IMG/VR virus record: IMGVR_UViG_3300045988_034528
From: a virus
Strand: one strand, 5' to 3'
Length of the DNA stretch: 64,000 nucleotides
A program made the position numbers and the translations under genes. Below are positions 1,887-31,669 of the stretch, piece after piece; position 1 is the stretch's first letter, and the number at the start of each line of letters is the position of its first letter. Below the pieces are notes generated by a model. It ran no database searches. It worked only from the letters and a program-made list of their open reading frames with translations, and had not been told where the DNA came from.

Positions 1887-4800
1887 TTACTGCCTAAATC
1901 TAGAATCATAGTTTCTCTTGAAGAAGGGGTCATTCCCATCATAGCTACTATTAGCTATTTCTTGCTTCTCTTTGCTAACATCTCCCTGATACCTTATCAT
2001 TCTATCTTCTCTTAGGAGCATCAACATGCCCATAGCAGATATTCTATCAAAGTTGCCTTCAGAGTTGTAATTAATAAGTTCTTTCAATAGTGCCCTGTTC
2101 CTTACAGTAAATAACCTTGGAACCATCACTTCTTTCTCTTCTCCATCAATAATCTGCACAATAGGAACTGGGGCTAATAACCAGCTTCTCAATCTACTCC
2201 TTGCATAGATATTAATGGCAGGAGAGGCATTAGTACCCTTGCTGTTATGAGTAGTAATAAAATCTCCTATAAGGTAACAAGAGTCTTTTGCATCAACAGT
2301 AACACATTTAGCTTGTTCTTTACCTACATATCTTATATCAAGTATTCCTGTTTTATAAGCTCTATTCTTTGTAACAGATTGCTTTATATATTTTCTTTGA
2401 AGCTTAAATAGTATAATATCTGTATAAAAAATAATCTTATAGTAGTCCCCATAAGAATTATGAAGTACCTGTCTATTACAATTTATACCTAGACTTCTCG
2501 CTACTTCCATGATGTCACTACTTAACTGAACAGAGCAAGTGGAATATTCAGGATTTCCTCCATATCCTATATGCCCATCAGTGTCTAATAACCCCTGAAG
2601 TAGAGAAAGTCTATTTTCCCTACTATTGTACTTGTAAGTATCTGGTATAAATTTTGTATGGGAAGTTTTATCTAAAAGGCAATACTCTTCCAATATTTTT
2701 CCTATATTAGGCACAATCCACCTATGGTGCCTATCATCATAGGTCTTTACCCTAAATGGGACATTTTTCTTATATGTTTCTAAATCTTGTAGAGTAGAGG
2801 TAAAATATGCTTGATGATGTCTTGATTGTGTAAAACACCCATCCCCCAACATAATTCCCATAAAATATGCGGGCAGCTTTATTTCTTGTTCTCTAAAATC
2901 TATCCCAGAATTTTTTGGGATGTAGTATTTACACTCCTTGTATTTCCCTCTAACTCTGTAATAACCTTTTAATAAATCTTTTGTACTAAGTATCTTTTTC
3001 TTATTATTCCCATTTATTACTTCCCATAAATGATTTTCTGAACATCTTACCCTTCTACCATCTTTAAGAGTTATTTCATATATATCAGTAATATTATCAA
3101 AAGGAATATCCAGTACTTTAGTAACTCCTCCATAAGTATTATATAACAAATCACCTATTTGTATATCTCCCCATTTCTTAATTCCATTAGGGGTATAAAC
3201 CTTTTCTGAATACGGATGAGCCTTGTTACCATAGCCATCCTTCATCATCTGCTTTTCCTTTAAGAAATCAAGAACATCTGTAAGAAGATAAAGACTATTT
3301 CTTGTCGAAAAGTGAGAAAACAAGCCTTTCTTATTATACTCATAATTCAATCTACCATTGTAGAATAGACAAAGTTTTCTACAAATCTCATAATAATCAT
3401 CAGCAAAAGATGGTCTTCCAGTGTACTCAGCTACTATCCTATCTGTCCATAAGTCCAATACAAATATAGAACCTAAAGACATGGTATTTGATTCATCATC
3501 ATCATAGGGGTCAGCTCCTAATATATACCTATCATTATATGGCTTACCTGTATTCTTATCAATCTCAGGCATTTGAAAGATTTCTATAGCACCTTCAATT
3601 TTATTATCTTTATGTGGAAAATCTCTAATAGGCATAGCAGAAGTAGGCTTATACTCTACTTGACCATCTTTATTAAATACCAAATCACCTACATAGACAT
3701 CATCATATTCAGTAGGATTAGCATCTAATTGACCTACTCTTTCAGTCAGGTCAGCTACAGGGAACATATTTACACCTGTCTTAACAATAGCCTCAGCAGG
3801 AGTAATAGGAACCTCAGCAATGGTCTTAATGATAGTATTAGGGTCAGTAGAATTGTACTTTACTCTGTACCTATTCATAAGAATCTCAATAAGAGCCTTA
3901 ATTACATCAGATACACCATTCTCATTATAGCATCCCTTTCTATTTACATAGCCAGGAAAGAAGAATACAAAGTAAGGTTTACCTTGGTTGTACTTATCAT
4001 ATACATTAGGTAAAGCATACATATTATAACCTTTTGGGTTATACATAATTTCTTGAGCACCAGCAAAGTCTGATTCATTATCACCAGCAGTACCCAACAT
4101 ATAGATTTGACCAAAGACAATATCACCTTCCTGTACTGAAGGTAATAATACATTATACAAGTCTACAAGTCTTGGGAATGTACCAAACTCCTCAATAAGA
4201 ATCTTAGCAGCTCTCTTACCTCTCAACTTAGACTCATCATCCTTAGATGATACCCCAAGTACTGTATTTTGAGTACCTCTTTCAATATCAAGGTCTACAT
4301 CCTTGTACCCCATTATCCATGTCATTTCCTGCAAAGAGTTCTTTAATCTCTTTCTTGGAAACTGGGTATTGGTTGCACAGAAATTAGCCATGTCCACAAA
4401 CTTGTTAAGGACACCATCCTTAGTAAGGTACTCTTTCTGATAAGCAGTTACTATACCCTTTACCTTATCATGTGCTTCTTCATTTTCACCTACTACAAAG
4501 ATATGGTTAAGAATAGAAGCAAGACTATATGACTTACCCTTACCTCTAGAAGCAAGCTCAGCCATATGCTGACCTCCCTCAAAGTTATTGTATAAACCAC
4601 CATTTGATGCTTGGTCTAAGCAATGGAATCTCCAATAGATTCCTTCCCAACACTCAGGTAATGCTTCTACTCTATCAGCTCTTTTAGACTTTCTCTTTTT
4701 ACCATTCTTATCCTTATACTCTCTAATTTTAGAGAGCATCATAGGAGAATAATTAAGGAACCAGTACATATAACCTGTAACCCATTCTCCATCACTTTCC

Positions 4801-5165
4801 CTCACATAACCATCCCAGACTCTTCTTTTTTCCTCTCTTATCCATTTACCATACTCACTATTAGGATTGGCATTAGGTCTAAGATTAGTAAATGTACCAT
4901 ACTTCTCATAATGTAAAGCAGATGGTCTGAAATAGTCCATATTCTCAAGTATGTGAGGATTAATCAAGTCCACAATGATTCTATCTCTATCATCTCTTGG
5001 TCTATCCTTGGCATGTTCTCTTGTAGGACTTATCAATCTCTTGACAAATTCTACATTATTTATAATATCAAATAACTGGTCCTGAACTTCCTGAGGAAGG
5101 CTATTAACCAATTCTTCAGTTAGCTCAGTCTGATATTCATTCATTGGTATTCTTTGAAAATCCAT
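1887..5165 (-). CDS. terL: terminase large subunit, interrupted by an in-frame intein
   Basis: 1092-aa ORF. Walker A-like LASRGKGKSYS, Walker B-like KILIEEFG, nuclease-type acidic cluster ILGADPYDDDE. Removing the 322-aa intein leaves a ~770-aa extein. An alternative start at M8 (5144) would reduce the overlap with the upstream ORF. Confidence 0.9.
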   Translation of the reverse strand: MDFQRIPMNEYQTELTEELVNSLPQEVQDQLFDIINNVEFVKRLISPTREHAKDRPRDDRDRIIVDLINPHILENMDYFRPSALHYEKYGTFTNLRPNANPNSEYGKWIREEKRRVWDGYVRESDGEWVTGYMYWFLNYSPMMLSKIREYKDKNGKKRKSKRADRVEALPECWEGIYWRFHCLDQASNGGLYNNFEGGQHMAELASRGKGKSYSLASILNHIFVVGENEEAHDKVKGIVTAYQKEYLTKDGVLNKFVDMANFCATNTQFPRKRLKNSLQEMTWIMGYKDVDLDIERGTQNTVLGVSSKDDESKLRGKRAAKILIEEFGTFPRLVDLYNVLLPSVQEGDIVFGQIYMLGTAGDNESDFAGAQEIMYNPKGYNMYALPNVYDKYNQGKPYFVFFFPGYVNRKGCYNENGVSDVIKALIEILMNRYRVKYNSTDPNTIIKTIAEVPITPAEAIVKTGVNMFPVADLTERVGQLDANPTEYDDVYVGDLVFNKDGQVEYKPTSAMPIRDFPHKDNKIEGAIEIFQMPEIDKNTGKPYNDRYILGADPYDDDESNTMSLGSIFVLDLWTDRIVAEYTGRPSFADDYYEICRKLCLFYNGRLNYEYNKKGLFSHFSTRNSLYLLTDVLDFLKEKQMMKDGYGNKAHPYSEKVYTPNGIKKWGDIQIGDLLYNTYGGVTKVLDIPFDNITDIYEITLKDGRRVRCSENHLWEVINGNNKKKILSTKDLLKGYYRVRGKYKECKYYIPKNSGIDFREQEIKLPAYFMGIMLGDGCFTQSRHHQAYFTSTLQDLETYKKNVPFRVKTYDDRHHRWIVPNIGKILEEYCLLDKTSHTKFIPDTYKYNSRENRLSLLQGLLDTDGHIGYGGNPEYSTCSVQLSSDIMEVARSLGINCNRQVLHNSYGDYYKIIFYTDIILFKLQRKYIKQSVTKNRAYKTGILDIRYVGKEQAKCVTVDAKDSCYLIGDFITTHNSKGTNASPAINIYARSRLRSWLLAPVPIVQIIDGEEKEVMVPRLFTVRNRALLKELINYNSEGNFDRISAMGMLMLLREDRMIRYQGDVSKEKQEIANSSYDGNDPFFKRNYDSRFRQ
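2244..3209 (-). mobile_element. intein (322 aa) with a LAGLIDADG homing endonuclease domain inside terL
   Basis: Block A-like start S-EKVYTPNGIKKWGDIQIGDLL (Ser1 codon 3209..3207). Block B RVRCSENHLW (TxxH-like). Two LAGLIDADG motifs: YFMGIMLGDGCF and LLQGLLDTDGHIG. Terminal ...CYLIGDFITTHN followed by +1 Ser (Asn codon 2246..2244). Confidence 0.8.
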
Positions 5166-5490
5166 TATATTCTCCCTTTATTACTTCTTCATAGAAATCA
5201 GAGCCTATCCAATTAAATATAAGATGACATAATTCAGTGTTTATATACTGTTGCATAGATTCCTCTTGCCCTTCTAGTACTTTATCAGAATGACTAAGTG
5301 AAATAACTATATGTCTATTCTTTCCTTTAACAAACCATAGAATAGCCTTATATGTTTTGTAGGCTTTGAAAGTAGGATGAGGCTCTATTACTTTTTGCAA
5401 TATTAGGTGCCCTTTAGATGAAATGCTTCTCTCCCTTCTCCTATCTTCAATATGTCTATTAAGTCCTTCTACTATATCTTCTGCTTTCAT
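5137..5490 (-). CDS. hypothetical protein
   Basis: 117-aa ORF. Its stop overlaps the terL start region (ATGAATGA), and its start overlaps the stop of the upstream ORF. No recognised motif. Confidence 0.6.
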   Translation of the reverse strand: MKAEDIVEGLNRHIEDRRRERSISSKGHLILQKVIEPHPTFKAYKTYKAILWFVKGKNRHIVISLSHSDKVLEGQEESMQQYINTELCHLIFNWIGSDFYEEVIKGEYNGFSKNTNE

Positions 5491-9287: not shown

Positions 9288-9358
9288 AGCAGAATAACAG
9301 ATTCGAACTGTCAACTTAACTTTGGAAGAGTTACATGTTACCATTACACTAATTCTGC
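9288..9358 (-). tRNA. tRNA-Gly (anticodon UCC)
   Basis: Manual cloverleaf: acceptor GCAGAAT/ATTCTGC, anticodon arm TAACT-CTTCCAA-AGTTA, T arm GACAG-TTCGAAT-CTGTT. Confidence 0.85.
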
Positions 9359-9368
9359 AATTAGAAAG

Positions 9369-9441
9369 AGCCTCTTATAGGAATCGAACCCATATCTTCT
9401 GAGTACAAAACAGAAATAATAAACCTTTATACTAAAGAGGC
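9369..9441 (-). tRNA. tRNA, probably Thr (UGU)
   Basis: Acceptor GCCTCTT/AAGAGGC, T arm ATGGG-TTCGATT-CCTAT. The anticodon arm is imperfect (TCTGT-TTTGTAC-TCAGA with a U-U mismatch), so the identity is tentative. Confidence 0.6.
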
Positions 9442-9445
9442 ATTG

Positions 9446-9529
9446 TAGGAGTAGAGGGACTCGAACCCTCAAGGACTTATGTCCATAACTGTTTAAGAGT
9501 TACATGTTTACCTATTTCATCATACTCCC
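9446..9529 (-). tRNA. tRNA-Leu (UAA), class II
   Basis: Acceptor GGGAGTA/TACTCCT, anticodon arm TAACT-CTTAAAC-AGTTA, long variable arm TGGACATAAGTCCTT, T arm GAGGG-TTCGAGT-CCCTC. Confidence 0.85.
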
Positions 9530-9563
9530 TCGGGTCTACCTATTCCCCCATGAAGCCTTTATT

Positions 9564-10010
9564 TTAATAAGGTCTCACATCACACAGGCCAAATAAGTAC
9601 CTATACTTATTAATATTCTGTATGAAGGTCTCACATTCTGAGGTAATACCTTTATATACAGTATCTTGGGGAATCTTGTCATAAAAAGATAATGTACCTG
9701 CTTTAACTTCTTCAATGAAGTCAATAGCATTCAGTGTATTACTTGCAGTACCTTTAATAACATTAGGTTGCATCTTCCCAAGTATTCCCATATAACCCTC
9801 TGCAAGACCATCCTGATAATCTGATAGTATATTAAGAAACTCATCAAGATATACATGTATATTTTTCTTAGGTGCTGCCCAATGAAGGTTTTTACACTTA
9901 GTTTTCCACCCCTCAAGTTGATTAAGGAAACTTATGAAGAATTGACTTCCTGTAGGAGAATTATTCTCTCTTTCCTCTTCCATTGGTGTAAATAAGCTAT
10001 CTTCAAACAT
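9564..10010 (-). CDS. Dps-family (ferritin-like) protein candidate
   Basis: 148 aa. KNLHWAAPKKNIHVYLDEFLNILSDYQDGLAEGY gives His, then H-x3-D-x10-D-x3-E, the spacing of the Dps inter-subunit ferroxidase ligands. The size fits Dps. It lies inside the tRNA array. Confidence 0.6.
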   Translation of the reverse strand: MFEDSLFTPMEEERENNSPTGSQFFISFLNQLEGWKTKCKNLHWAAPKKNIHVYLDEFLNILSDYQDGLAEGYMGILGKMQPNVIKGTASNTLNAIDFIEEVKAGTLSFYDKIPQDTVYKGITSECETFIQNINKYRYLFGLCDVRPY

Positions 10011-10033
10011 ATTTTATTTTATTTTATTTAAAG

Positions 10034-10114
10034 TACCTCTCAAGAGACTCGAACTCTTACACCCTAAGGCCATAGCTTCTAAGGCTATTATGTCTTCCAT
10101 TCCATCAGAGAGGT
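10034..10114 (-). tRNA. tRNA-Leu (UAG), class II
   Basis: Acceptor ACCTCTC/GAGAGGT, anticodon arm ATAGC-CTTAGAA-GCTAT, long variable arm, T arm AAGAG-TTCGAGT-CTCTT. Confidence 0.8.
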
Positions 10115-10262
10115 ATGTCTTTTATTGAAGATAGGTAAGTTACCTAGGAGGTAACATACCTGAGGGCAAGTAAGTTATATTTGAAAAAGCCCGACTTACC
10201 CTTCTTTTAAAAAATGAAATAATCTTTCTCATATCACTTAATTTAAAGGGATTAATAATCAG

Positions 10263-10335
10263 TTTCCCCACTAGGAGTTGAACCTAGCTCTCCTGATTAA
10301 AAATCAGGAGCATCCACCCTTAATGCTTTGGGGAA
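10263..10335 (-). tRNA. tRNA-Lys (UUU)
   Basis: Acceptor TTCCCCA/TGGGGAA, anticodon arm CCTGA-TTTTTAA-TCAGG, T arm CTAGG-TTCAACT-CCTAG. Confidence 0.8.
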
Positions 10336-10407
10336 ATGAAGTAAGTCTTTTATAGAGGACTTTCTGCTTTAGTTAGAAAGTTACTTTAGACAGATTGTCC
10401 AAGATAG

Positions 10408-10481
10408 TACTCACAAAGGGACTTGAACCCCTGACCTTGAATGTATAAGATTCCTGCTCTAACCAACTGAGCTATGTGAGT
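10408..10481 (-). tRNA. tRNA-Ile (UAU)
   Basis: Acceptor ACTCACA/TGTGAGT, D arm GCTC-AGTTGGTTA-GAGC, anticodon loop CTTATAC, T arm AGGGG-TTCAAGT-CCCTT. Confidence 0.8.
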
Positions 10482-10534
10482 ATAAACATGAGTAGTTAAG
10501 CTATGCTTAGAACATTCTCTAACTTCTTTCATAG

Positions 10535-10606
10535 CGGGGGTAGAAAGAATCGAACTTTCATCTCTTGATTAACAGTCAAGTGCATAGACCTTCCAGCTAC
10601 ACCCCC
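10535..10606 (-). tRNA. tRNA-Asn (GUU)
   Basis: Acceptor GGGGGTG/TACCCCC, anticodon arm CTTGA-CTGTTAA-TCAAG, T arm GAAAG-TTCGATT-CTTTC. The D stem is weak. Confidence 0.75.
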
Positions 10607-10614
10607 ATAATTTG

Positions 10615-10688
10615 TTGCTCCTATTAGAATCGAACTAATGACCTTTTCCTTGTAAGGGAACTATTCTTAACCACTGAACTAAGGAGCA
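10615..10688 (-). tRNA. tRNA-Val (UAC)
   Basis: Acceptor TGCTCCT/AGGAGCA, anticodon arm GTTCC-CTTACAA-GGAAA, T arm ATTAG-TTCGATT-CTAAT. Confidence 0.8.
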
Positions 10689-10771
10689 TGGTAGGCAGTT
10701 TCTTTAACCTCTAACTGCTTAAAAAGAGGGTTCAAGCAAAAGCTTAACAGTATGAAAACATGAAACATGTG

Positions 10772-10844
10772 TGGAGAATGAGGGACTCGAACCCTCTAAT
10801 ATAGCTTGCAAAGCTATCAGTTTATCCAGTTAGCTTAATTCCCC
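10772..10844 (-). tRNA. tRNA-Ala (UGC)
   Basis: Acceptor GGGGAAT/ATTCTCC with a G3-U70 wobble (the Ala identity element), anticodon arm ATAGC-TTTGCAA-GCTAT, T arm GAGGG-TTCGAGT-CCCTC. Confidence 0.85.
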
Positions 10845-10973
10845 CATATGAGAGTATAGGCTATCAACTCTCTTGTATACAGTTGCCATTCATTCCATAC
10901 TTTGAATACCTTAAAGGTGGTATCCCCTACCCTCATGTACTGTGGGTGAGCATCTTATATCTCTATAAGAACG

Positions 10974-11049
10974 TAGAGTAGACAAGACTCGAACTTGCAA
11001 TATCACTGCATCCCAAATGCAGGGGGCTAACCAATTACCCTACTACTCT
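10974..11049 (-). tRNA. tRNA-Pro (UGG)
   Basis: Acceptor AGAGTAG/CTACTCT, anticodon arm CTGCA-TTTGGGA-TGCAG, T loop TTCGAGT. The variable region is slightly long. Confidence 0.7.
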
Positions 11050-11055
11050 ATATTG

Positions 11056-11141
11056 CGGAGAGTATTGTACTCGAAACAAATACCTTATTAGGGTACTCAC
11101 TATTTAGCAGATAGGACTATCACCTTGATAGTTTACTCTCC
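11056..11141 (-). tRNA. tRNA-Ser (GCU), class II
   Basis: Acceptor GGAGAGT/ACTCTCC, anticodon loop CTGCTAA, long variable arm GTACC...GGTAT, T loop TTCGAGT. Confidence 0.75.
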
Positions 11142-11188
11142 ATTGCCTATCCTACCACTGTAGGAATAGGACTTTTAAGTTGGGTAGC

Positions 11189-11259
11189 AGACTATGAGGG
11201 AATTGAACCCTAAACTTCACATTAACAGTGTGATATGCAAACCATTACACTACATAGCC
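11189..11259 (-). tRNA. tRNA-Asn (GUU), second copy
   Basis: Anticodon arm TCACA-CTGTTAA-TGTGA, T loop TTCAATT, acceptor GGCTATG/CATAGTC. The register of the T stem and acceptor is ambiguous by 1 nt. Confidence 0.7.
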
Positions 11260-11266
11260 TATATAG

Positions 11267-11338
11267 TAGAGCCACTGGGAATTGAACCCAGATTTCTGCC
11301 TTGAAAGGGCAGTTACCTAACCTTTAGTAGATGACTCC
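11267..11338 (-). tRNA. tRNA-Glu (UUC)
   Basis: Acceptor GGAGTCA/TGGCTCT, anticodon arm CTGCC-CTTTCAA-GGCAG, T arm CTGGG-TTCAATT-CCCAG. Confidence 0.85.
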
Positions 11339-11344
11339 ATTCAG

Positions 11345-11416
11345 TAGGGAAGTAAGGACTTGAACCTTATCCTTAGCCTTGAGAGGGCTACGACCTAACC
11401 TATAGTCTACATCCCC
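11345..11416 (-). tRNA. tRNA-Glu (CUC)
   Basis: Acceptor GGGGATG/CTTCCCT (one mismatch), anticodon arm TAGCC-CTCTCAA-GGCTA, T arm TAAGG-TTCAAGT-CCTTA. Confidence 0.75.
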
Positions 11417-11424
11417 ATTCTTAG

Positions 11425-11496
11425 TACCCCCTATAGGAATCGAACCTATATCAAAAGATTAGAAGTCTCTTATTCTATCCATTGAACTAAGAGGGC
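11425..11496 (-). tRNA. tRNA-Arg (UCU)
   Basis: Acceptor GCCCTCT/AGGGGGT, anticodon arm AGAGA-CTTCTAA-TCTTT, T arm ATAGG-TTCGATT-CCTAT. Confidence 0.85.
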
Positions 11497-11513
11497 ATTT
11501 GCCTTTACTATTG

Positions 11514-11586
11514 TTACCCCAATAAGACTTGAACTTATGTTACAGGATCCAAAATCCAGTGTAATAACCAACTATACTATGGGGCA
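11514..11586 (-). tRNA. tRNA-Gln (UUG)
   Basis: Acceptor TGCCCCA/TGGGGTA, anticodon arm CTGGA-TTTTGGA-TCCTG (one mismatch), T arm ATAAG-TTCAAGT-CTTAT. Confidence 0.75.
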
Positions 11587-11677: not shown

Positions 11678-11709
11678 CAAAAGTAAACATAATTTTTGAA
11701 ACTACCAAA
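11678..11709 (-). promoter_or_regulatory. Bacteroides-type promoter in front of the minus-strand tRNA array
   Basis: The minus strand reads TTTG-GTAGTTTCAAAAATTATGTT-TACTTTTG-CA (TTTG, exactly 20 nt, TAnnTTTG), about 90 nt upstream of tRNA-Gln. Confidence 0.6.
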
Positions 11710-12227: not shown

Positions 12228-12259
12228 CAAAGATAAGTAAAAGAAATGATATGACCAAA
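12228..12259 (-). promoter_or_regulatory. Bacteroides-type promoter firing leftward into the ORF-free structured region
   Basis: The minus strand reads TTTG-GTCATATCATTTCTTTTACT-TATCTTTG (TTTG, 20 nt, TAnnTTTG). Confidence 0.55.
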
Positions 12260-15801: not shown

Positions 15802-15873
15802 ACTCTCATAGTTTAATTGGTAAAACAACTATCTTATAAATAGAAGATGTAAGTTCGAATCTTACTGAGAGTA
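15802..15873 (+). tRNA. tRNA-Ile (UAU), plus-strand copy
   Basis: Acceptor ACTCTCA/TGAGAGT, anticodon loop CTTATAA, T arm GTAAG-TTCGAAT-CTTAC. Confidence 0.8.
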
Positions 15874-15934
15874 CCATGTTGTATTTGAGTTAATTTAATG
15901 GAAAGAGCTGGTATGTGATATATAGGCTCTTTAT

Positions 15935-16008
15935 GGCTGATTAGCTCAACTGCATAGAGCAAAAGCTTCCTAAGCTTTAGGTTAAGGGTTGGATTCCCTT
16001 ATCAGCCA
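15935..16008 (+). tRNA. tRNA-Arg (CCU)
   Basis: Acceptor GGCTGAT/ATCAGCC, D arm GCTC...GAGC, anticodon arm AAAGC-TTCCTAA-GCTTT, T arm AAGGG-TTGGATT-CCCTT. Confidence 0.8.
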
Positions 16009-16093
16009 CTAGAATTAATCACTCATAATATTTTTATTTATGTGACTTATTGTCACTATAGTATAATGGTCTGTGAAGATAGTCATACTTAAT

Positions 16094-16165
16094 GTCCTCA
16101 TAGTTCAATGGATAGAACAATAGCCTCCTAAGCTATTAATCTGAGTTCGAGTCTCAGTGGGGATA
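16094..16165 (+). tRNA. tRNA-Arg (CCU), second copy
   Basis: Acceptor GTCCTCA/TGGGGAT, D arm GTTC-AATGGATA-GAAC, anticodon arm ATAGC-CTCCTAA-GCTAT, T arm CTGAG-TTCGAGT-CTCAG. Confidence 0.8.
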
Positions 16166-27099: not shown

Positions 27100-27126
27100 A
27101 GATAATAAAAGATTTATGCAATGGTA

Positions 27127-27160
27127 GGTAAGAGATATTATATCTCTTACCTCTTTTTTT
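27127..27160 (+). terminator. rho-independent terminator
   Basis: Perfect 11-bp stem GGTAAGAGATA-TTA-TATCTCTTACC followed by TCTTTTTTT. Confidence 0.85.
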
Positions 27161-27162
27161 AC

Positions 27163-28470
27163 ATGAACATGAGTGAAGAAAATATTAAGCAATTTAATGA
27201 AAGTGTACACCTAATCTATAATGCTATAATGGATAAGCCTCTTCAGGTGCTTAGCATATTCAATGATTTCTTTGGGGTAGATAGAGTTGATATGCAAGGT
27301 GTTTGGAGTGAAGATAGACTAAGGTCCTGGCTTGAAGTAGAACCTATTACTTCATACCTCTATAGAGGTAATTTAGATATATCAACTAGTGACTGGCATA
27401 CATACTCTACTAAGAGTATAATAGATTTGACTCAAAGTGATTTTGAGAGAGTAATTTCATCATTATCTTGTATAGATACGATAAAAAATATTGTTAATAG
27501 TAAGTTTAATAATATATTTATACTTGTACACTTTCCACATGTAAGGGTTACTAATGAACATGATAGGTATGTAGATATTAATCATCTATGGGCTAAGATT
27601 AGAATAACATTTAATGGTACTATGGAAGGTTATTTTGCTCTCAATAGGTCTGAGTACCAAGCTACTCACTTTATGAGTGGTTATATGCACAGTCATGTAA
27701 GTAGTATTCCTAAAAGTGACTTTACTAGGTTTCAGACTCCTTGCACTGGAAATGGGCCTATCAATAGTACTATATCCTCCTTACATGTAGAATTTGATAG
27801 TAACCTTTGGCAACTATTCTGCCTTGAACTCAGTAAATATGTTACTGTTGAATCTATTCAAGGAAGACCTTTTAGGTATCTTGAGAGAATAGGTACTAGT
27901 AATATGGATATGGGAGTATCTTCCTTTATTGTATTTAATGCTCTTAGATACTGGGATGCTTCTTTTGAAAATCCAGACAAGTTAAAAGAGTTTGTCAAAT
28001 ACTTTATTCAAGATAATCATTTGAAGTTTAATTATGTAAATGGCTCCTATTCTATAGGAATGTCTTTCATAGAGTTTATAGTATTGATTAGTAATGAATT
28101 TATCAAATGGTATAATAAACAATTCAATGATAAGAAAGTAACTACTACTTTTGAAAATCTGAAAAGAGGCCGTGTAATTAGAGAGTGTATTATTAGTGGT
28201 AGTAAAATCTATTATAATAACAACCACAGGAACAATGTTAATAATCTCGTTTCTTATATAGGAAAAAAGATTTGCACTTTCAAAGGAACAGAGATTACTC
28301 TTAGTATAGTAGGAGTATCTGAAGTAAATGATGAGAACAAGAGCATTATACTTGACCCTCAGACTGCATTATTTATATTAAGTCAAATCCTCAAAGTATT
28401 AAATTACAGATATGGAAGAGAAACAGCAACTCATACAAACAAAATTGGTACAGAAGTCAGGTACTTATAA
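27163..28470 (+). CDS. hypothetical protein, first gene of the JAB/E1 cassette
   Basis: The track start at 27121 lies inside the terminator hairpin. ATG 27163 or 27169 (MNMSEENIKQF...) is preferred. Contains SGYMHSHVSS and TPCTGNGP. No confident family assignment. Confidence 0.7.
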   Translation: MNMSEENIKQFNESVHLIYNAIMDKPLQVLSIFNDFFGVDRVDMQGVWSEDRLRSWLEVEPITSYLYRGNLDISTSDWHTYSTKSIIDLTQSDFERVISSLSCIDTIKNIVNSKFNNIFILVHFPHVRVTNEHDRYVDINHLWAKIRITFNGTMEGYFALNRSEYQATHFMSGYMHSHVSSIPKSDFTRFQTPCTGNGPINSTISSLHVEFDSNLWQLFCLELSKYVTVESIQGRPFRYLERIGTSNMDMGVSSFIVFNALRYWDASFENPDKLKEFVKYFIQDNHLKFNYVNGSYSIGMSFIEFIVLISNEFIKWYNKQFNDKKVTTTFENLKRGRVIRECIISGSKIYYNNNHRNNVNNLVSYIGKKICTFKGTEITLSIVGVSEVNDENKSIILDPQTALFILSQILKVLNYRYGRETATHTNKIGTEVRYL

Positions 28471-28750
28471 TTATAAGATAGTCATACCAGCTGAAGTTGA
28501 GAAAAAGATAAGATTTACCTGTCAAAGAGTATGGAATACAGAGTGGTCAGGTACATTATTCTTTACATATGAAGGCTCATTTGAAAATAATGACCTTGTA
28601 ATCAGATGTGTTGATATTTACATTATGGATATTGGTACTCAAGCTTATACAGAGTTTGATATGAATCCTGATGTAATTGCATATATGTGTAAAAATCCTG
28701 AGTTATTAGATTGTCAGATGGGGTTAATCCATTCACATAACAATATGTCT
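28412..28750 (+). CDS. JAB/MPN (JAMM) metalloprotease domain protein, exon 1
   Basis: NTEWSGTLFF (conserved Glu) ... GLIHSHNNMS. The HxH of the JAMM motif is followed by an artificial stop two codons later. The motif is completed only after the intron is removed. Confidence 0.7.
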
Positions 28751-28768
28751 AAATAATTTATTTATTTC

Positions 28769-28800
28769 TTTGCATAATTCAAAATATTTTCTTATCTTTG
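28769..28800 (+). promoter_or_regulatory. Bacteroides-type promoter inside the intron, upstream of the LAGLIDADG ORF
   Basis: TTTG-CATAATTCAAAATATTTTCT-TATCTTTG-CA (TTTG, 20 nt, TAnnTTTG), 23 nt before the ATG at 28823. Confidence 0.55.
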
Positions 28801-28822
28801 CAGCATAACAAATAAAAAAGCT

Positions 28823-29719
28823 ATGCTGAACATCAAAGATTACAAAGAGCAAATTGTAGATTTATATCAAAAAGGTAAAACTGCTAAAGAAATCAGTTCT
28901 ATATTAGGATTTAAGTATCATCAGCCAGTTTATAATTTCTTTAAAAAAATGGGCTGGGAAAGAAATGGTAAAACAGGTAAAAGAATCTATAAGGTAAATG
29001 AGCAATTTTTCAATAATATAAACACTGAGGAAAAAGCTTATATACTAGGTTTTATATGTGCTGATGGACATATAGAAAAGGATAGATTAAATGTAACTGT
29101 AGCTATAAAAGATAAGGATATACTTGAAAAGATTAGAAAAGCTATGCAATCTAATCATCCTATAAAAGAAGTAAAAAGAACTAATCCATATAATAAAACT
29201 AACAGGAAAACTCTTACACTTGCAGAATTAATGATAGGCAGTGTTGAGGTAGTTAAACCATTATTTAAGATGGGATTAACTACTAATAAGTCTTATACAC
29301 TAAATGGGGATATAGTAAAATATATTCCGAAATATTTAATTAGAGATTTCCTAAGAGGTTATTTTGATGGAGATGGTAATGTATTCTTTGGCAGAAGATA
29401 CTCCTCTGGGTATAAATATAATATAAATATATGTGGTAATGAAGATTTTCTACTGAAATCATTTCAAACTTACTTCCCAAGTAATAACAAGCTATATAAA
29501 GATTTATATAGCAAGCAATGTTTTGTTTGGAAATTAAGCCAAAGAGATAAAGTAAGAGATTTCATGTATTATCTATATTACAATTCTTCAATTTTTCTAC
29601 AAAGAAAATATAATGAATTTAGAAAAATAATGTGGGCATATAAAACTGGGTTAATTGCTGGAAACTCCTACTCTAATATGCAAAATAGAGGGACAATCAG
29701 CAGCCAATCTATAGATTAA
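28823..29719 (+). CDS. LAGLIDADG homing endonuclease (intron-encoded)
   Basis: Two LAGLIDADG motifs, YILGFICADGHIE and FLRGYFDGDGNVF, plus an N-terminal HTH-like KGKTAKEISSILG. The 3' end overlaps the intron P/Q core elements. Confidence 0.85.
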   Translation: MLNIKDYKEQIVDLYQKGKTAKEISSILGFKYHQPVYNFFKKMGWERNGKTGKRIYKVNEQFFNNINTEEKAYILGFICADGHIEKDRLNVTVAIKDKDILEKIRKAMQSNHPIKEVKRTNPYNKTNRKTLTLAELMIGSVEVVKPLFKMGLTTNKSYTLNGDIVKYIPKYLIRDFLRGYFDGDGNVFFGRRYSSGYKYNINICGNEDFLLKSFQTYFPSNNKLYKDLYSKQCFVWKLSQRDKVRDFMYYLYYNSSIFLQRKYNEFRKIMWAYKTGLIAGNSYSNMQNRGTISSQSID

Positions 29720-29879
29720 ATGTTTATAGCAGGTTCAACGACTAACAGGTGAAACTATAGAAATATAGAATATAATCCTGACACGAAATCCCAGCACATA
29801 GAAATATGTGAAGATATAGTCTGAACACTATAGTAATATAGTGAACATAGGGATAAAGAGCCTTATGGGTAACAAAATG

Positions 29880-30752
29880 ACATTTTTTAGTGGAACAGAT
29901 ACTGCTACATTAAAAGAAGAAGGTAGGGATAGGAATAATTTTGTGTCTCTTATTGTCAATAATGAAGGTACTTATACTGCTGCTATTACTAGAAAAGTTA
30001 AAAGATATAGCCAAATTAAAGATATATTAGTATATGAATTTTTTGGTGATGGAGAGAAACAAGACACAAAAGAATATACTCAAGATGGGATAGATGAGAT
30101 TGAATGGTTTTATCTTAAAATAGAGAAAGAAGGAGATAATTATTCCTTTTCAGACATAACAACAAGACTTGAGGAAATCAAGCAAGCTAAAGCAGAAAGG
30201 GCAAAGAAAGTTCAGACACCTATATATCAAGGTAGTTATAAGCCTGTTATTGCTAATTCCTATAGTATAAAAGCAGGCCCAGCAAATCTTACCAAGAAAG
30301 AAGTTGATAAGCCAAAAATAATCCAAACTTCTCTCTTTGATGATATAGATGACTTGCCATTTGAAGAAAGGTATGACATACCTTATGGTCAAGTATCATT
30401 TGATAAGTCTACCTTGAAATCTCTTGTACTTCAACTGATTACAGGTAGTATTATTATTTCCAATGATAGTAAGATTAACATTACTAAATGGGCTAATTCA
30501 ATGCCTACACTATATGAAAAGAGGTTTGGTAATGGTGAAGAAGGTATGAAAAATTTCAAAATGTGGGCAGATACCTATACAGATTATCTGACATGGTATG
30601 TGACAGATGAGAAATTAGAAGAGCTTGGCTTTGATGAAACAGAAATTTGTGCTATTTGTGCTCATGATATGATTGAGGAATTAACCAAGCTCCCTGAAAA
30701 TGAATATATTAAAGGATTTATTGATGTACTTCAAAAGTATTTAGTATTATGA
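29880..30752 (+). CDS. JAB/MPN protein, exon 2 (rest of the JAMM motif plus a ~280-aa C-terminal region)
   Basis: Begins TFFSGTDTATLKEEG (the S-x2-D of JAMM). The track ORF start (GTG 29841) is intron sequence. The stop overlaps the E1-like start (ATGA). Confidence 0.7.
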   Translation, partial: TFFSGTDTATLKEEGRDRNNFVSLIVNNEGTYTAAITRKVKRYSQIKDILVYEFFGDGEKQDTKEYTQDGIDEIEWFYLKIEKEGDNYSFSDITTRLEEIKQAKAERAKKVQTPIYQGSYKPVIANSYSIKAGPANLTKKEVDKPKIIQTSLFDDIDDLPFEERYDIPYGQVSFDKSTLKSLVLQLITGSIIISNDSKINITKWANSMPTLYEKRFGNGEEGMKNFKMWADTYTDYLTWYVTDEKLEELGFDETEICAICAHDMIEELTKLPENEYIKGFIDVLQKYLVL

Positions 30753-31669
30753 CAACTAGTGAAATAGAAGACAGAGTAGCAGAATCTGAAAGAGCTTTAG
30801 AAGAAGCTATTGAAGAGTTCAACTCTGTAGAGGAGTATGAAGAGGCTCTTCAGAATCTTGATAATGATTCACCTTTGACAGAGGAAGAACAGGCTATTCT
30901 TGACCAAGCTGTAGAGGAAGCACATCAGGAGATACCTGTAAATTCTGAAACTTTGCTTGTGGATGAAGCTACTAGTAGGTTCAGCTCTGCTATTTGGTAT
31001 GAAAAGATACAGGAAAAGACTATTGTTCTTGCAGGTGTAGGAGGTATTGGCAGTTATGTTGGATTCCTACTTGCAAGGATGAAGCCGGCTTCTATGTTTA
31101 TTTATGATGATGATATAGTAGAAGCTGTTAATATGTCAGGTCAGTTATATGGTCAGAATGATATTGGAGTTGCTAAAGTAACTGCCCTTGCAAATATGGT
31201 TAGGAATTATGCTAACTATAATAGTGTATTTGCTATAGCTGAAAGATTTACTTCTGAATGTGAACCTACAGATATTATGATTTGTGGGTTTGATAATATG
31301 GAAGCTAGAAGAGTATTCTTTACAAAGTGGACTGAGTATGTTTATAGCAAGCCTAAGGAGGAAAGAAAGAATTGTTTGTTTATTGATGGTAGATTGGCAG
31401 CAGAAGAGTTTCAAATATTATGTATTAGAGGAGACGATGAATTTAATATCCACAGGTATAATAATGAATTTTTATTCTCTGATGCAGAAGCTGATGAAAC
31501 TATTTGCTCTTATAAACAAACTACCTTCTGTGCAAATATGATTGCTTCTTACATGGTTAATTTGTTTGTAAACTTCTGTGCTAACCAATGTAACCCTATT
31601 ATTGACAGAGACCTGCCATTCCTTACTACATATAATGCAGAAACAATATATTTTAAAACCGAAGCATAA
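30749..31669 (+). CDS. E1-like adenylyltransferase (ThiF/MoeB/UBA family)
   Basis: IVLAGVGGIGSYVGFLLARM (GxGxxG Rossmann), IYDDDIVEAVNMSGQLY (equivalent to D.D.Ve.sNL.RQ), ICGFDNMEARRVF. Acidic ~75-aa N-terminal extension. Confidence 0.8.
   Translation: MTTSEIEDRVAESERALEEAIEEFNSVEEYEEALQNLDNDSPLTEEEQAILDQAVEEAHQEIPVNSETLLVDEATSRFSSAIWYEKIQEKTIVLAGVGGIGSYVGFLLARMKPASMFIYDDDIVEAVNMSGQLYGQNDIGVAKVTALANMVRNYANYNSVFAIAERFTSECEPTDIMICGFDNMEARRVFFTKWTEYVYSKPKEERKNCLFIDGRLAAEEFQILCIRGDDEFNIHRYNNEFLFSDAEADETICSYKQTTFCANMIASYMVNLFVNFCANQCNPIIDRDLPFLTTYNAETIYFKTEA

What the first reader, a model, noticed from the sequence alone, without database searches (positions are those of the whole stretch)
28751..29879. 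Group I intron with its own host-type promoter splits the JAMM catalytic motif of the JAB gene
The JAB ORF stops two codons after HSH (…GLIHSHNNMSK*). The S-x2-D half of the JAMM motif (TFFSGTD) reappears 1.1 kb downstream in a different ORF.

The intervening DNA holds a double-motif LAGLIDADG ORF. It also holds, in the canonical order, close matches to the four classical group I core elements as I recall them:
- P, AATTGCGGGAAAGG vs AATTGCTGGAAACT;
- Q, AATCCGCAGC vs AATCAGCAGC;
- R, GTTCACAGACTAAA vs GTTCAACGACTAAC;
- S, AAGATATAGTCC vs AAGATATAGTCT.

Splicing after T28750 and after G29879 keeps the frame and yields HSH-NNMSTFF-SGTD, exactly HxH-x7-S-x2-D.

Phage group I introns usually sit in DNA-metabolism genes such as td, nrd or pol. 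One inside a JAB protease gene is unusual, and it implies this gene is conserved enough to be a homing target. A perfect TTTG-N20-TATCTTTG promoter lies inside the intron ahead of the endonuclease ORF.
Basis: partly seen in the sequence, partly recalled or inferred. Interest (0 to 1): 0.7.

Follow-up and report, generated by a model that had tools for sequence, protein, structure and literature searches.

The report
Mobile group I intron splitting JAB gene
A crAss-like gut phage carries a self-splicing, mobile group I intron, with its own homing endonuclease gene, inside the catalytic motif of a JAB-type metalloprotease gene; it is a clear but ordinary example of a well-known kind of selfish element in a host gene where none had been reported.

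Summary
Window 28751..29879 (1129 nt) is a group I intron (Rfam RF00028, 74-78 bits against a gathering score of 50). It interrupts a JAB/JAMM gene of a crAss-like phage between HSHNNMS and TFFSGTD.

- **Splice sites.** Splicing after U28750 and G29879 gives a 403-aa protein. Two 98-99% identical sibling phages encode that same protein, 100% identical, as one uninterrupted ORF.
- **Guide sequence.** It lies 880 nt downstream of the 5' splice site, at 29629..29641. It forms an 8-bp P1 and a 5-bp P10 and covaries with the exon in two other phages.
- **Endonuclease gene.** The intact double-motif LAGLIDADG gene therefore sits in the P1 loop, and its last 30 codons overlap P3-P6.
- **Core.** 20 of 50 core pairs show compensatory changes across four related introns.
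- **Mobility.** Four synonymous substitutions cluster at the junction (P = 2e-5), as expected for a homing co-conversion tract.
- **Hotspot.** Related introns occupy three sites within 24 nt of the same motif, including an unannotated one in cultured Flavobacterium phage Fpv1.
- **Promoter.** The TTTG-N20-TATCTTTG motif recurs ahead of an independent intron endonuclease gene, so it is plausible but unproven.

This is a new member of a known kind. Introns with LAGLIDADG genes are already documented in crAss-like phages. Interest is moderate to low.

The parts
28412..28750 (+). JAB/JAMM gene, exon 1 (residues 1-113, ending ...GLIHSHNNMS)
   Evidence: ORF. Aligns gap-free with uninterrupted homologs. 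Carries invariant E44, H107 and H109.
28743..28750 (+). P1 5' strand (exon AUAUGUCU); U28750 forms the U.G wobble that defines the 5' splice site
   Evidence: Pairs with 29634..29641 over 8 bp. This is the unique best site in the intron; 1 of 2000 shuffles matches it. Compensatory changes occur in L067 and L194.
28751..29879 (+). Group I intron, 1129 nt
   Evidence: Rfam RF00028 at 74-78 bits. Absent from the 98-99% identical siblings L002 and L003, with the breakpoint exactly here.
28754..28756 (+). TAA stop in the exon-1 reading frame, one codon into the intron
   Evidence: Read directly.
28769..28800 (+). Promoter-like motif: TTTG (28769-28772), 20-nt spacer, TATCTTTG (28793-28800), ending 23 nt upstream of the endonuclease ATG
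   Evidence: Exact match; 7 in the window against 1.46 expected. Conserved in L067, and an independent copy lies ahead of the endonuclease ORF of L067's E1-gene intron. Function is inferred.
28823..29719 (+). Double-motif LAGLIDADG homing endonuclease gene (298 aa, with an N-terminal HTH-like region), located in the P1 loop; its last ~30 codons overlap the guide sequence and P3-P6a
   Evidence: Pfam LAGLIDADG_3 E 2.4e-10; phrog_4645 E 4e-48. 89% identical intact copy in L067/L193, 45% in L194, 30% in L068.
29629..29641 (+). Internal guide sequence: AAUGU (P10 strand, 29629-29633) followed by GGGCAUAU (P1 3' strand, 29634-29641), 4 nt upstream of P3
   Evidence: Covaries with the exon in L067 (GGGCAUGU with ACAUGUCU) and L194 (GGCCAUU with AAUGGCU).
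29646..29843 (+). Ribozyme core: P3 29646-50/29790-94; P4 29656-61/29697-702; P5-P5a 29666-75/29686-93; P6-P6a 29703-16/29722-34; P7 29740-44/29817-21; P7.1 29746-49/29777-80; P7.2 29755-59/29764-68; P8 29795-800/29805-10; P9 29826-32/29837-43
   Evidence: Rfam alignment, thermodynamic fold, and covariation: 93% of cells paired and 20 of 50 pairs compensatory, with 0 of 500 shuffles reaching this.
29846..29879 (+). P9.1 hairpin (29846-52/29861-67) and 3' tail GGUAACAAAAUG, ending in the terminal G (omega-G) at 29879
   Evidence: Fold. Similar hairpin and GAUAACA tail in the L068 and Fpv1 introns.
29880..30752 (+). JAB/JAMM gene, exon 2 (residues 114-403, starting TFFSGTD); 29880-29884 ACAUU is the exon strand of P10
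   Evidence: S117 and D120 are invariant.

Best explanation
Window 28751..29879 is a mobile, self-splicing group I intron of the phage IA-like type, with P7.1/P7.2 present and no P2. It lies in the JAB/JAMM metalloprotease gene of a crAss-like phage.

Shown by computation:
- The ribozyme fold.
- The exact exon junction, U28750 | A29880.
- A guide sequence placed 880 nt from the 5' splice site, so that the whole LAGLIDADG endonuclease gene lies in the P1 loop.
- The presence/absence polymorphism among near-identical phages.

Inferred mechanism:
1. The gene is transcribed through the intron.
2. Ribosomes translating exon 1 stop at the TAA one codon into the intron.
3. The distal guide sequence pairs with the exon-1 end (P1) and then with the exon-2 start (P10).
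4. Guanosine-initiated transesterification joins the exons and restores HxH-x7-S-x2-D, giving a full 403-aa protein.
5. The endonuclease is probably expressed from its own Bacteroidota-type promoter inside the intron. Such a transcript lacks the 5' splice site and serves only as messenger.
6. The endonuclease cuts intron-less alleles at the highly conserved motif-coding DNA during co-infection. Repair then copies in the intron plus a few flanking exon nucleotides.
7. Because the endonuclease ORF runs into P3-P6, its translation and ribozyme folding are probably mutually exclusive on one RNA, as in T4 td/I-TevI.
For: Core fold:
- Rfam RF00028 scores 74.1 and 78.4 bits against a gathering score of 50.
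- On an alignment of four related introns, 93% of cells pair, against 33-46% for slid controls. 20 of 50 pairs change on both sides, and 0 of 500 shuffles reach this.

Junction and P1/P10:
- P1 of 8 bp plus an adjacent P10 of 5 bp at G29634 is the unique best guide-sequence candidate (1 of 2000 shuffles) and lies 4 nt before P3.
- P1 has compensatory changes in L067 (U-A to C-G) and L194 (two more).
- The spliced product aligns without a gap to the 401-aa CDS of Bajarodcaudo virus 1. It is 100% identical to uninterrupted ORFs in L002 and L003, whose flanks are 98-99% identical in DNA.

Host gene:
- 67 of 69 related loci are uninterrupted, and the motif HSHNNMSTFFSGTD is identical in 57.
- The family hits Pfam Prok-JAB in 7 of 7 diverse members, best E 6.4e-7. 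The top PDB profile hits are JAMM1 and Rpn11-like proteins with the motif aligned.

Mobility:
- 4 of 32 window-versus-L003 mismatches fall within 10 nt of the junction (TCT|ACA TTT against AGT|ACC TTC, all synonymous; P = 1.9e-5). The same flanks occur in the intron-containing L067.
- The endonuclease ORF is intact in the window, L067 and L194.

Promoter:
- The motif is enriched in the window and conserved in L067. It is repeated ahead of the endonuclease ORF of an unrelated intron in L067's E1 gene.

Precedents:
- An internal promoter, an ORF overlapping the core, and co-conversion are all described for T4 introns in PMC2988022.
Against: - There is no RNA evidence. Splicing, endonuclease activity and promoter use are all inferred.
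- A P1 whose two strands are 880 nt apart must fold around a translated ORF, which could make splicing slow or dependent on a protein factor.
- The window's own spliced product scores just below Pfam's Prok-JAB cutoff (20.8-22.6 bits against 25), and a single-sequence AlphaFold model failed (pLDDT 33). The JAMM assignment therefore rests on the motif, family-wide Pfam hits and weak PDB profile hits.
- 4 of the 7 promoter-motif matches in the window lie inside ORFs, so the motif does occur by chance in this AT-rich DNA.
Confidence: 0.88

Rival explanations
1. The intron is a splicing-dead relic. The JAB gene in this phage is a pseudogene split into two untranslated or non-functional pieces.
For: No RNA data exist. 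The intron allele is rare: 2 of 68 IMG/VR loci carry any interruption, and the exact endonuclease occurs on only 4 public contigs. P1 is long-range.
Against: All core helices, the U.G pair at the splice site, the terminal G, P1 and P10 are intact, and P1 covaries with the exon across three lineages. The exons are 100% identical in protein to the intron-less siblings, with only synonymous changes at the junction. The same intron is kept, with an intact ORF, in phages 85% and about 40% related.
Confidence: 0.05
2. The gene is truly split, without RNA splicing. The endonuclease insertion divides JAB into two polypeptides that assemble non-covalently, as described for genes split by free-standing endonucleases in T4-like phages.
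For: Gene callers and GenBank annotators treat such loci as separate ORFs (Fpv1). PHROGs even holds two half-gene families.
Against: A complete ribozyme lies exactly between the halves. The split would separate HxH from S-x2-D, which together coordinate a single metal site. The 'exon-2 ORF' has no conserved start; its GTG at 29841 lies inside P9.
Confidence: 0.03
3. Splicing occurs at a different pair of sites. One option is after U28738 and G29867, which also keeps the frame and gives HSH-GNKMTFF-SGTD. Another is a 5' site at U28748, paired with the nearby GCAUA at 28772 or 28803.
For: The 3' tail TAACAAAATG resembles the exon-1 end TAACAATATG. The minimum-energy fold of the 5' region pairs UAUGU with GCAUA.
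Against: - Homologs read NNM[SAP]TFF, not GNKMTFF.
- The DNA of the intron-less siblings breaks exactly at 28750/29880.
- U28748 has no in-frame partner ending in G that keeps the x7 spacing (checked by hand).
- The GAUAACA tail is conserved in introns at other sites, so it belongs to the ribozyme and is not an exon duplicate.
- Only G29634 offers P1 plus an adjacent P10.
Confidence: 0.02
4. The TTTG-N20-TATCTTTG motif is a chance match in AT-rich non-coding DNA. The endonuclease is then translated only from the read-through pre-mRNA or from the excised intron.
For: 4 of 7 matches in the window are inside ORFs. L068 and Fpv1 have no exact match ahead of their opposite-strand endonuclease ORFs. 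L194 keeps only the -7 box, TATATTTG.
Against: Enrichment is 7 against 1.46 expected, with 1 of 100 shuffles reaching 7. Two other window copies lie just upstream of the minus-strand tRNA array. L067 has 3 against 0.14 expected, and two of those lie in the short leaders of two different intron endonuclease ORFs.
Confidence: 0.35

Closest known systems
Phage T4 td intron with I-TevI (and the T4 nrdB and nrdD introns)
   Same: It is a self-splicing group I intron in a phage gene, inserted in DNA that encodes a conserved catalytic region. The endonuclease gene has its own promoter immediately upstream, inside the intron. The ORF's 3' end extends into the structured core, so translation and splicing compete. 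Homing proceeds with exon co-conversion (PMC2988022).
   Different: Here the endonuclease is a double-motif LAGLIDADG enzyme, not GIY-YIG or HNH. The ORF sits in the P1 loop, with the guide sequence 880 nt from the 5' splice site, rather than in P6 or P9. There is no P2. The host gene is a JAB metalloprotease, and the promoter type is Bacteroidota -33/-7.
Group I intron in the dUTPase gene of prototype crAssphage (Carjivirus communis BK010471, KP06_gp34/gp35)
   Same: Same phage order. The ribozyme core is about 69% identical. The layout is the same, with the endonuclease ORF upstream of, and overlapping, a 3'-terminal core. It is already annotated as an intron.
   Different: It has an HNH endonuclease instead of LAGLIDADG, and a different host gene.
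LAGLIDADG-containing group I introns of Delta and Zeta crAss-like phages (Yutin et al. 2021, PMC7886860)
   Same: Group I introns with LAGLIDADG ORFs interrupting conserved crAss-like phage genes.
   Different: They are reported in MCP, PolB, primase, ATP_43b and RNAP genes, and JAB and ThiF are not mentioned. That paper states that alpha-gamma group genomes lack such insertions. This window's relatives are about 98 kb human-gut crAss-like phages, with the intron present in only a small minority of strains.
Related introns found here in the same motif: L068 (site GLIH|SH), Flavobacterium phage Fpv1 KU599877 (site VGH|IHSH), L067 and L194 (same site as the window)
   Same: Homologous ribozyme cores, 51-91% identical with shared P7.1/P7.2 and joiner sequences, and homologous LAGLIDADG enzymes at 30-89% identity. 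All interrupt the JAMM catalytic motif.
   Different: L068 and Fpv1 use a local guide sequence about 10 nt from the 5' splice site. They carry the endonuclease gene on the opposite strand downstream of the core, at sites 18 and 24 nt upstream of the window's site.

Membership tests
Group I intron (Rfam RF00028) | Sequence and structure match to the P3-P9 catalytic core above the curated threshold | tested here: met
   74.1 bits (gathering settings) and 78.4 bits (permissive filters) against a gathering score of 50; E 6e-17 and 3e-18.
Group I intron (Rfam RF00028) | Helices supported by covariation in related sequences | tested here: met
   93% of cells paired and 20 of 50 pairs with changes on both sides. 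0 of 500 shuffles reach this, and slid controls give 33-46% paired. P7 is invariant, so it is uninformative.
Group I intron (Rfam RF00028) | P1 formed by the exon-1 end and an internal guide sequence, with U.G at the 5' splice site | tested here: met
   AUAUGUCU pairs with GGGCAUAU, with U28750.G29634. It is the unique best candidate and shows compensatory changes in L067 and L194.
Group I intron (Rfam RF00028) | Terminal G (omega-G) at the intron's 3' end, and P10 with the exon-2 start | tested here: met
   G29879. AAUGU (29629-33) pairs with ACAUU (29880-84), directly adjacent to the P1 strand.
Group I intron (Rfam RF00028) | Guanosine-dependent self-splicing | not testable with these tools
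   Needs in vitro transcription and splicing, or RT-PCR.
Subgroup IA2 (typical phage introns) | Extra helices P7.1 and P7.2 between P7 and the 3' strand of P3 | tested here: met
   CAGG/CCUG and CUAUA/UAUAG at 29746-29780. In helix P7.1 all 4 pairs change on both sides across relatives.
Subgroup IA2 (typical phage introns) | Full subgroup architecture (P2 and the P9 extensions as in reference IA2 introns) | tested here: inconclusive
   There is no P2 between the guide sequence and P3; only AAAA separates them. No subgroup-specific model was available, so I call it IA-like only.
LAGLIDADG homing endonuclease | Two LAGLIDADG motifs in one chain (monomeric type) and a profile match above threshold | tested here: met
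   YILGFICADGHI and FLRGYFDGDGNV. Pfam PF14528 at 40.9 bits against 22.5; phrog_4645 at E 4e-48.
LAGLIDADG homing endonuclease | Site-specific cleavage of the intron-less allele, leading to homing | not testable with these tools
   Indirect support only: presence/absence among 98-99% identical genomes, and a co-conversion-like cluster of substitutions (P = 1.9e-5).
JAB/JAMM (MPN+) metalloprotease (host gene) | E ... HxH-x7-S-x2-D metal-binding motif | tested here: met
   Restored only after splicing. E44, H107, H109, S117 and D120 are invariant in seven sequences down to 54% identity.
JAB/JAMM (MPN+) metalloprotease (host gene) | Profile match to a curated JAB family above threshold | tested here: inconclusive
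   The window's product scores 20.8-22.6 bits against a cutoff of 25. All 7 of 7 family members hit Prok-JAB, best E 6.4e-7. The PDB profile's top hits are JAMM1 (E 0.03) and Rpn11-like. The AlphaFold model was unusable.
Bacteroidota housekeeping-sigma promoter (-33 TTTG / -7 TAnnTTTG; consensus recalled from general knowledge) | Both elements present with 19-21 nt spacing, upstream of a gene | tested here: met
   28769..28800, ending 23 nt before the ATG. 7 in the window against 1.46 expected. It recurs ahead of another intron's endonuclease ORF in L067.
Bacteroidota housekeeping-sigma promoter (-33 TTTG / -7 TAnnTTTG; consensus recalled from general knowledge) | Transcription actually starts there | not testable with these tools
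   Needs 5' end mapping.

The most novel reading that the evidence does not exclude
One lineage of IA-like ribozymes in Bacteroidota phages may have repeatedly re-targeted itself within a 24-nt stretch encoding the JAMM motif, at three sites. This would have happened by changing its guide sequence and swapping the position and strand of its LAGLIDADG gene. Ribozyme and endonuclease would then evolve as separable modules. The window's form, with the endonuclease gene in the P1 loop and a guide sequence 880 nt away, would be a derived state in which endonuclease translation gates JAB expression. Core similarity tracks phage relatedness rather than insertion site: the window's core is 74% identical to L068's at a different site, but only 51% to L194's at the same site. 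That pattern is compatible with local site-hopping or module exchange.
Probability: 0.2. Interest if true: 0.55.

Novelty: new member of a known kind. Interest (0 to 1): 0.35.

Why it matters
- **Annotation.** The locus is one 403-aa metalloprotease gene plus a mobile element, not three unrelated ORFs. The same mis-annotation exists in GenBank for Flavobacterium phage Fpv1, and it has propagated into PHROGs as two artefactual half-gene families.
- **Biology.** The window and its intron-less siblings are a natural snapshot of intron homing in human-gut crAss-like phage populations, complete with a co-conversion tract.
- **An experimental system.** The cultured pair Fpv1 (intron present) and FpV4 (intron absent) would allow homing to be tested in Bacteroidota phages.
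- **The host module.** Three insertion sites within 24 nt, plus an intron in the neighbouring E1 gene, mark the JAB-E1 module as highly conserved and probably important. Its function in these phages is unknown.

Tried and rejected
- **Local P1.** The 5' region folds UAUGU (28744-48) onto GCAUA (28772 or 28803). A splice after U28748 has no partner ending in G that keeps both the frame and the x7 spacing, so I rejected it.
- **Alternative in-frame pair U28738/G29867.** Rejected on homolog sequence, the breakpoint in the sibling phages, and the lack of a guide sequence.
- **Scan of viral contigs with the P...Q pattern.** The pattern is generic to phage group I introns and does not help define close relatives.
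- **AlphaFold on a single sequence (P0001).** It gave pLDDT 33 and was unusable. I did not run a fold search on it.
- **phmmer of the endonuclease against PDB.** It matched only an N-terminal helix-turn-helix-like 26-residue stretch and no solved LAGLIDADG enzyme.
- **Rfam at gathering settings.** It missed the Fpv1 and L194 introns in multi-locus scans. Focused scans found them at 43.4 bits (below the gathering score) and 54.5 bits.
- **Promoter motif ahead of the opposite-strand endonuclease ORFs of L068 and Fpv1.** No exact match.
- **Literature searches** for crAss-like phages with JAB/ThiF, and for group I intron with JAMM and phage, found nothing specific.
Full report
**1. What is there**

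The window is from a crAss-like phage. Its nearest deposited record is Bajarodcaudo virus 1 at about 79% nucleotide identity, and more distant matches are Bacteroides intestinalis crAss-like phages.

- An ORF at 28412..28756 ends ...GLIHSHNNMSK*.
- A 298-aa ORF at 28823..29719 has two LAGLIDADG motifs.
- The sequence TFFSGTD starts at 29880.
- Rfam's group I intron model matches 29630..29843 at 74.1 bits, against a gathering score of 50 (E 6e-17). With permissive filters it matches 29586..29843 at 78.4 bits. It is the only intron hit in the 64 kb window.

**2. The junction**

Joining U28750 to A29880 gives a 403-aa protein with HSH-NNMSTFF-SGTD.
- It aligns without a gap across the junction to the uninterrupted 401-aa CDS that occupies the same position in Bajarodcaudo virus 1, between a 430-450-aa unknown gene and an E1/ThiF gene.
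- Two IMG/VR contigs, L002 and L003, are 98-99% identical to the window in flanking DNA. They encode a protein 100% identical to the predicted spliced product as one continuous ORF. Their similarity to the window breaks exactly at 28750/29880.
- Of 69 related loci, 67 are uninterrupted at the motif, and 57 have exactly HSHNNMSTFFSGTD.
- The protein database holds 4,823 relatives, including a 99% identical uninterrupted 403-aa protein.

**3. P1, P10 and the position of the ORF**

No guide sequence near the 5' splice site fits the junction. The fitting one is at 29629..29641, AAUGU|GGGCAUAU.
- GGGCAUAU pairs with the exon-1 end AUAUGUCU over 8 bp, with the U28750.G29634 wobble.
- The adjacent AAUGU pairs with the exon-2 start ACAUU over 5 bp, forming P10.
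- It is the single best candidate in the intron. Only 1 of 2000 shuffled introns contains an equal one anywhere, and here it lies 4 nt before P3, where a guide sequence must be.
- It covaries with the exon. In L067 the pair is ACAUGUCU with GGGCAUGU, and in the distant L194 it is AAUGGCU with GGCCAUU.

The 878 nt between the 5' splice site and the guide sequence are therefore the P1 loop. That loop holds the promoter-like motif and the endonuclease gene. There is no P2. The last ~30 codons of the endonuclease ORF (29629..29719) encode the guide sequence and P3 through P6a.

**4. The core**

From the Rfam alignment and a thermodynamic fold I assigned P3, P4, P5/5a, P6/6a, P7, P7.1, P7.2, P8, P9 and P9.1, followed by a 12-nt tail ending in G29879. 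I tested this assignment on an alignment of four related introns: the window, L067, L068 and Flavobacterium phage Fpv1.
- 93% of cells form standard pairs, against 33-46% when the partners are slid by 1-3 columns.
- 20 of 50 pairs show changes on both sides, and 0 of 500 shuffles reach this.
- P7 is invariant.
- Two helices between P7 and the 3' strand of P3 (P7.1 and P7.2) place the intron with the IA-type introns typical of phages. Because P2 is missing and no subgroup model was available, I do not assign a subgroup more precisely.

**5. Evidence of mobility**

- *Distribution.* The intron is sporadic. Its own siblings lack it. It is present at the same site, with an 89% identical intact endonuclease ORF, in L067 (about 85% nucleotide identity). 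It is also present, with a 45% identical endonuclease and the same architecture, in L194, whose JAB protein is only 40% identical. The exact endonuclease sequence is on 4 public contigs; the one place shown has the same gene context.
- *Co-conversion.* Between the window and L003, 4 of 32 mismatches in 3,767 compared positions fall within 10 nt of the junction (TCT|ACA TTT against AGT|ACC TTC). All are synonymous (hypergeometric P = 1.9e-5). The same flanks occur in the intron-containing L067, while 55 of 67 intron-less alleles cannot form the full P1. This is the pattern expected from co-conversion of exon flanks during homing (PMC2988022).
- *Possible loss or source lineage.* Four intron-less loci (L034, L040, L042, L043) carry donor-type flanks. 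They may represent precise intron loss or the source lineage.

**6. A hotspot**

The JAMM-motif DNA has been invaded at three sites within 24 nt.

| Site | Locus | Junction | Rfam bits | Guide sequence | Endonuclease ORF |
|---|---|---|---|---|---|
| A | Fpv1 (KU599877) | VGH\|IHSH | 43.4 (below the gathering score; E 2e-9 in a focused scan) | local, GGUCAU/GUGACC | opposite strand |
| B | L068 | GLIH\|SH | 66.3 | local | opposite strand |
| C | window, L067, L194 | HSHNNMS\|TFF | 74-78 (window) | 880 nt downstream | sense strand, in P1 loop |

- GenBank annotates the Fpv1 locus as three hypothetical proteins. The intron-less FpV4 has a single 423-aa CDS with 99.7% identical flanks.
- PHROGs contains two families whose profile lengths (117 and 314 positions) correspond to the two Fpv1 half-genes.
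- L067 also has a second group I intron (97 bits) in the adjacent E1 gene, right after GxGxxG.

**7. The promoter claim**

- TTTG-N20-TATCTTTG at 28769..28800 is an exact match to the Bacteroidota -33/-7 pattern, a consensus I recall from general knowledge. It ends 23 nt before the endonuclease ATG.
- The window has 7 matches against 1.46 expected, and 1 of 100 shuffles reaches 7. Three lie in non-coding DNA: this one and two just upstream of the minus-strand tRNA array. Four lie inside ORFs.
- The motif is conserved in L067. An independent TTTG-N20-TATCTTTG lies at the start of L067's E1-gene intron, again just ahead of its LAGLIDADG ORF. L067 has 3 matches against 0.14 expected.
- L194 keeps only the -7 box.
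- I rate a functional promoter at about 0.6. The arrangement is not new in kind: T4 I-TevI has a late promoter immediately upstream, inside the td intron (PMC2988022).

**8. The host gene**

- The spliced product hits Pfam Prok-JAB at E 1e-4 to 4e-4, just under the curated cutoff. All seven diverse family members hit it, with best E 6.4e-7.
- A family profile's best PDB matches are archaeal JAMM1 and Rpn11-like proteins, with HSH...SGxD aligned.
- E44, H107, H109, S117 and D120 are invariant.
- Depositors name relatives 'metalloprotease domain protein' or '26S proteasome regulatory subunit'.
- A single-sequence AlphaFold model failed.
- The gene is the middle member of a conserved triad, unknown 430-450-aa protein, then JAB, then E1/ThiF, lying beside UDG and primase genes. 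The triad's function in these phages is unknown.

**9. Comparison and novelty**

- Group I introns with LAGLIDADG genes are documented in crAss-like phages, in MCP, PolB, primase and RNAP genes (PMC7886860).
- The prototype crAssphage has an annotated intron in its dUTPase gene. Its core is about 69% identical to this one and it has the same ORF-then-core layout.
- I found no report of an intron in a JAB/JAMM or E1 gene.
- This is therefore a new member of a known kind. The less common features are the endonuclease gene in the P1 loop with a very distant guide sequence, the three-site hotspot, and clean population-level evidence of homing.

**10. Verdict**

| Claim | Confidence |
|---|---|
| Structurally complete group I intron at exactly these boundaries | about 0.9 |
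| It is, or recently was, mobile through its LAGLIDADG enzyme | about 0.75 |
| The internal promoter is functional | about 0.6 |

Interest is moderate to low (0.35).

Noticed in passing
L067:4302..5379 (IMGVR_UViG_3300045988_031478): A second group I intron (Rfam 97 bits) interrupts the neighbouring E1/ThiF gene immediately after the GxGxxG motif (GVGGIG|SYVG). It has its own LAGLIDADG ORF (4360..5187) and the same TTTG-N20-TATCTTTG motif at 4305..4336. The window's E1 gene (30749..31669) is uninterrupted.
   Followed up: partly
L190:2783..3803 (Flavobacterium phage Fpv1, KU599877.1), compared with L191 (FpV4, KT876724.1): A cultured phage carries an unannotated group I intron with an opposite-strand LAGLIDADG ORF in its JAB homolog. 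GenBank lists three hypothetical proteins there. FpV4 is an intron-less sibling with 99.7% identical flanks. Many other F. psychrophilum phage records show the same truncated match.
   Followed up: partly
PHROGs phrog_21448 and phrog_16107: These two 'unknown function' families correspond to the two halves of intron-split JAB genes. They appear to be annotation artefacts rather than real protein families.
   Followed up: partly
window 29689..29719; L068:3491..3520 (minus strand): The endonuclease C-termini are encoded by conserved ribozyme elements. The window's ...GTISSQSID is encoded by the Q element on the sense strand. The opposite-strand endonucleases of L068 and Fpv1 end ...QVQTISSP, encoded by the reverse complement of the S element (P7 3' strand). 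The shared 'TISS' uses different codons and is probably coincidence.
   Followed up: no
window 27121..28470 (449-aa ORF) with 28412..30752 and 30749..31669: A conserved gene triad, [430-450-aa protein with no Pfam hit, containing HSH and PCTGxGP motifs]-[JAB]-[E1/ThiF], occurs in crAss-like phages and in Fipvunavirus Flavobacterium phages beside UDG and primase genes. The upstream ORF overlaps the JAB start by 59 nt. The function of this ubiquitin-system-like module in phages is unknown.
   Followed up: no
L034, L040, L042, L043 (position ~3337 in each): Four intron-less JAB alleles carry the donor-type flanks TCT|ACA TTT, which would fully support P1 and P10. They could mark precise intron loss or the lineage in which the intron arose.
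   Followed up: no
window 9288..11586 (-) and 15802..16165 (+): Two tRNA gene arrays, about 19 tRNAs by Rfam. Two exact TTTG-N19-21-TAnnTTTG motifs (11678..11709 and 12228..12259, minus strand) lie just upstream of the minus-strand array.
   Followed up: no
identity matrix (window, L067, L194, L068, L190, L208): Ribozyme core similarity follows phage relatedness rather than insertion site or endonuclease type. The window's core is 74% identical to L068's (different site), 69% to the crAssphage dUTPase intron's (HNH endonuclease), and 51% to L194's (same site, homologous endonuclease). This suggests ribozyme and endonuclease modules are exchanged.
   Followed up: partly
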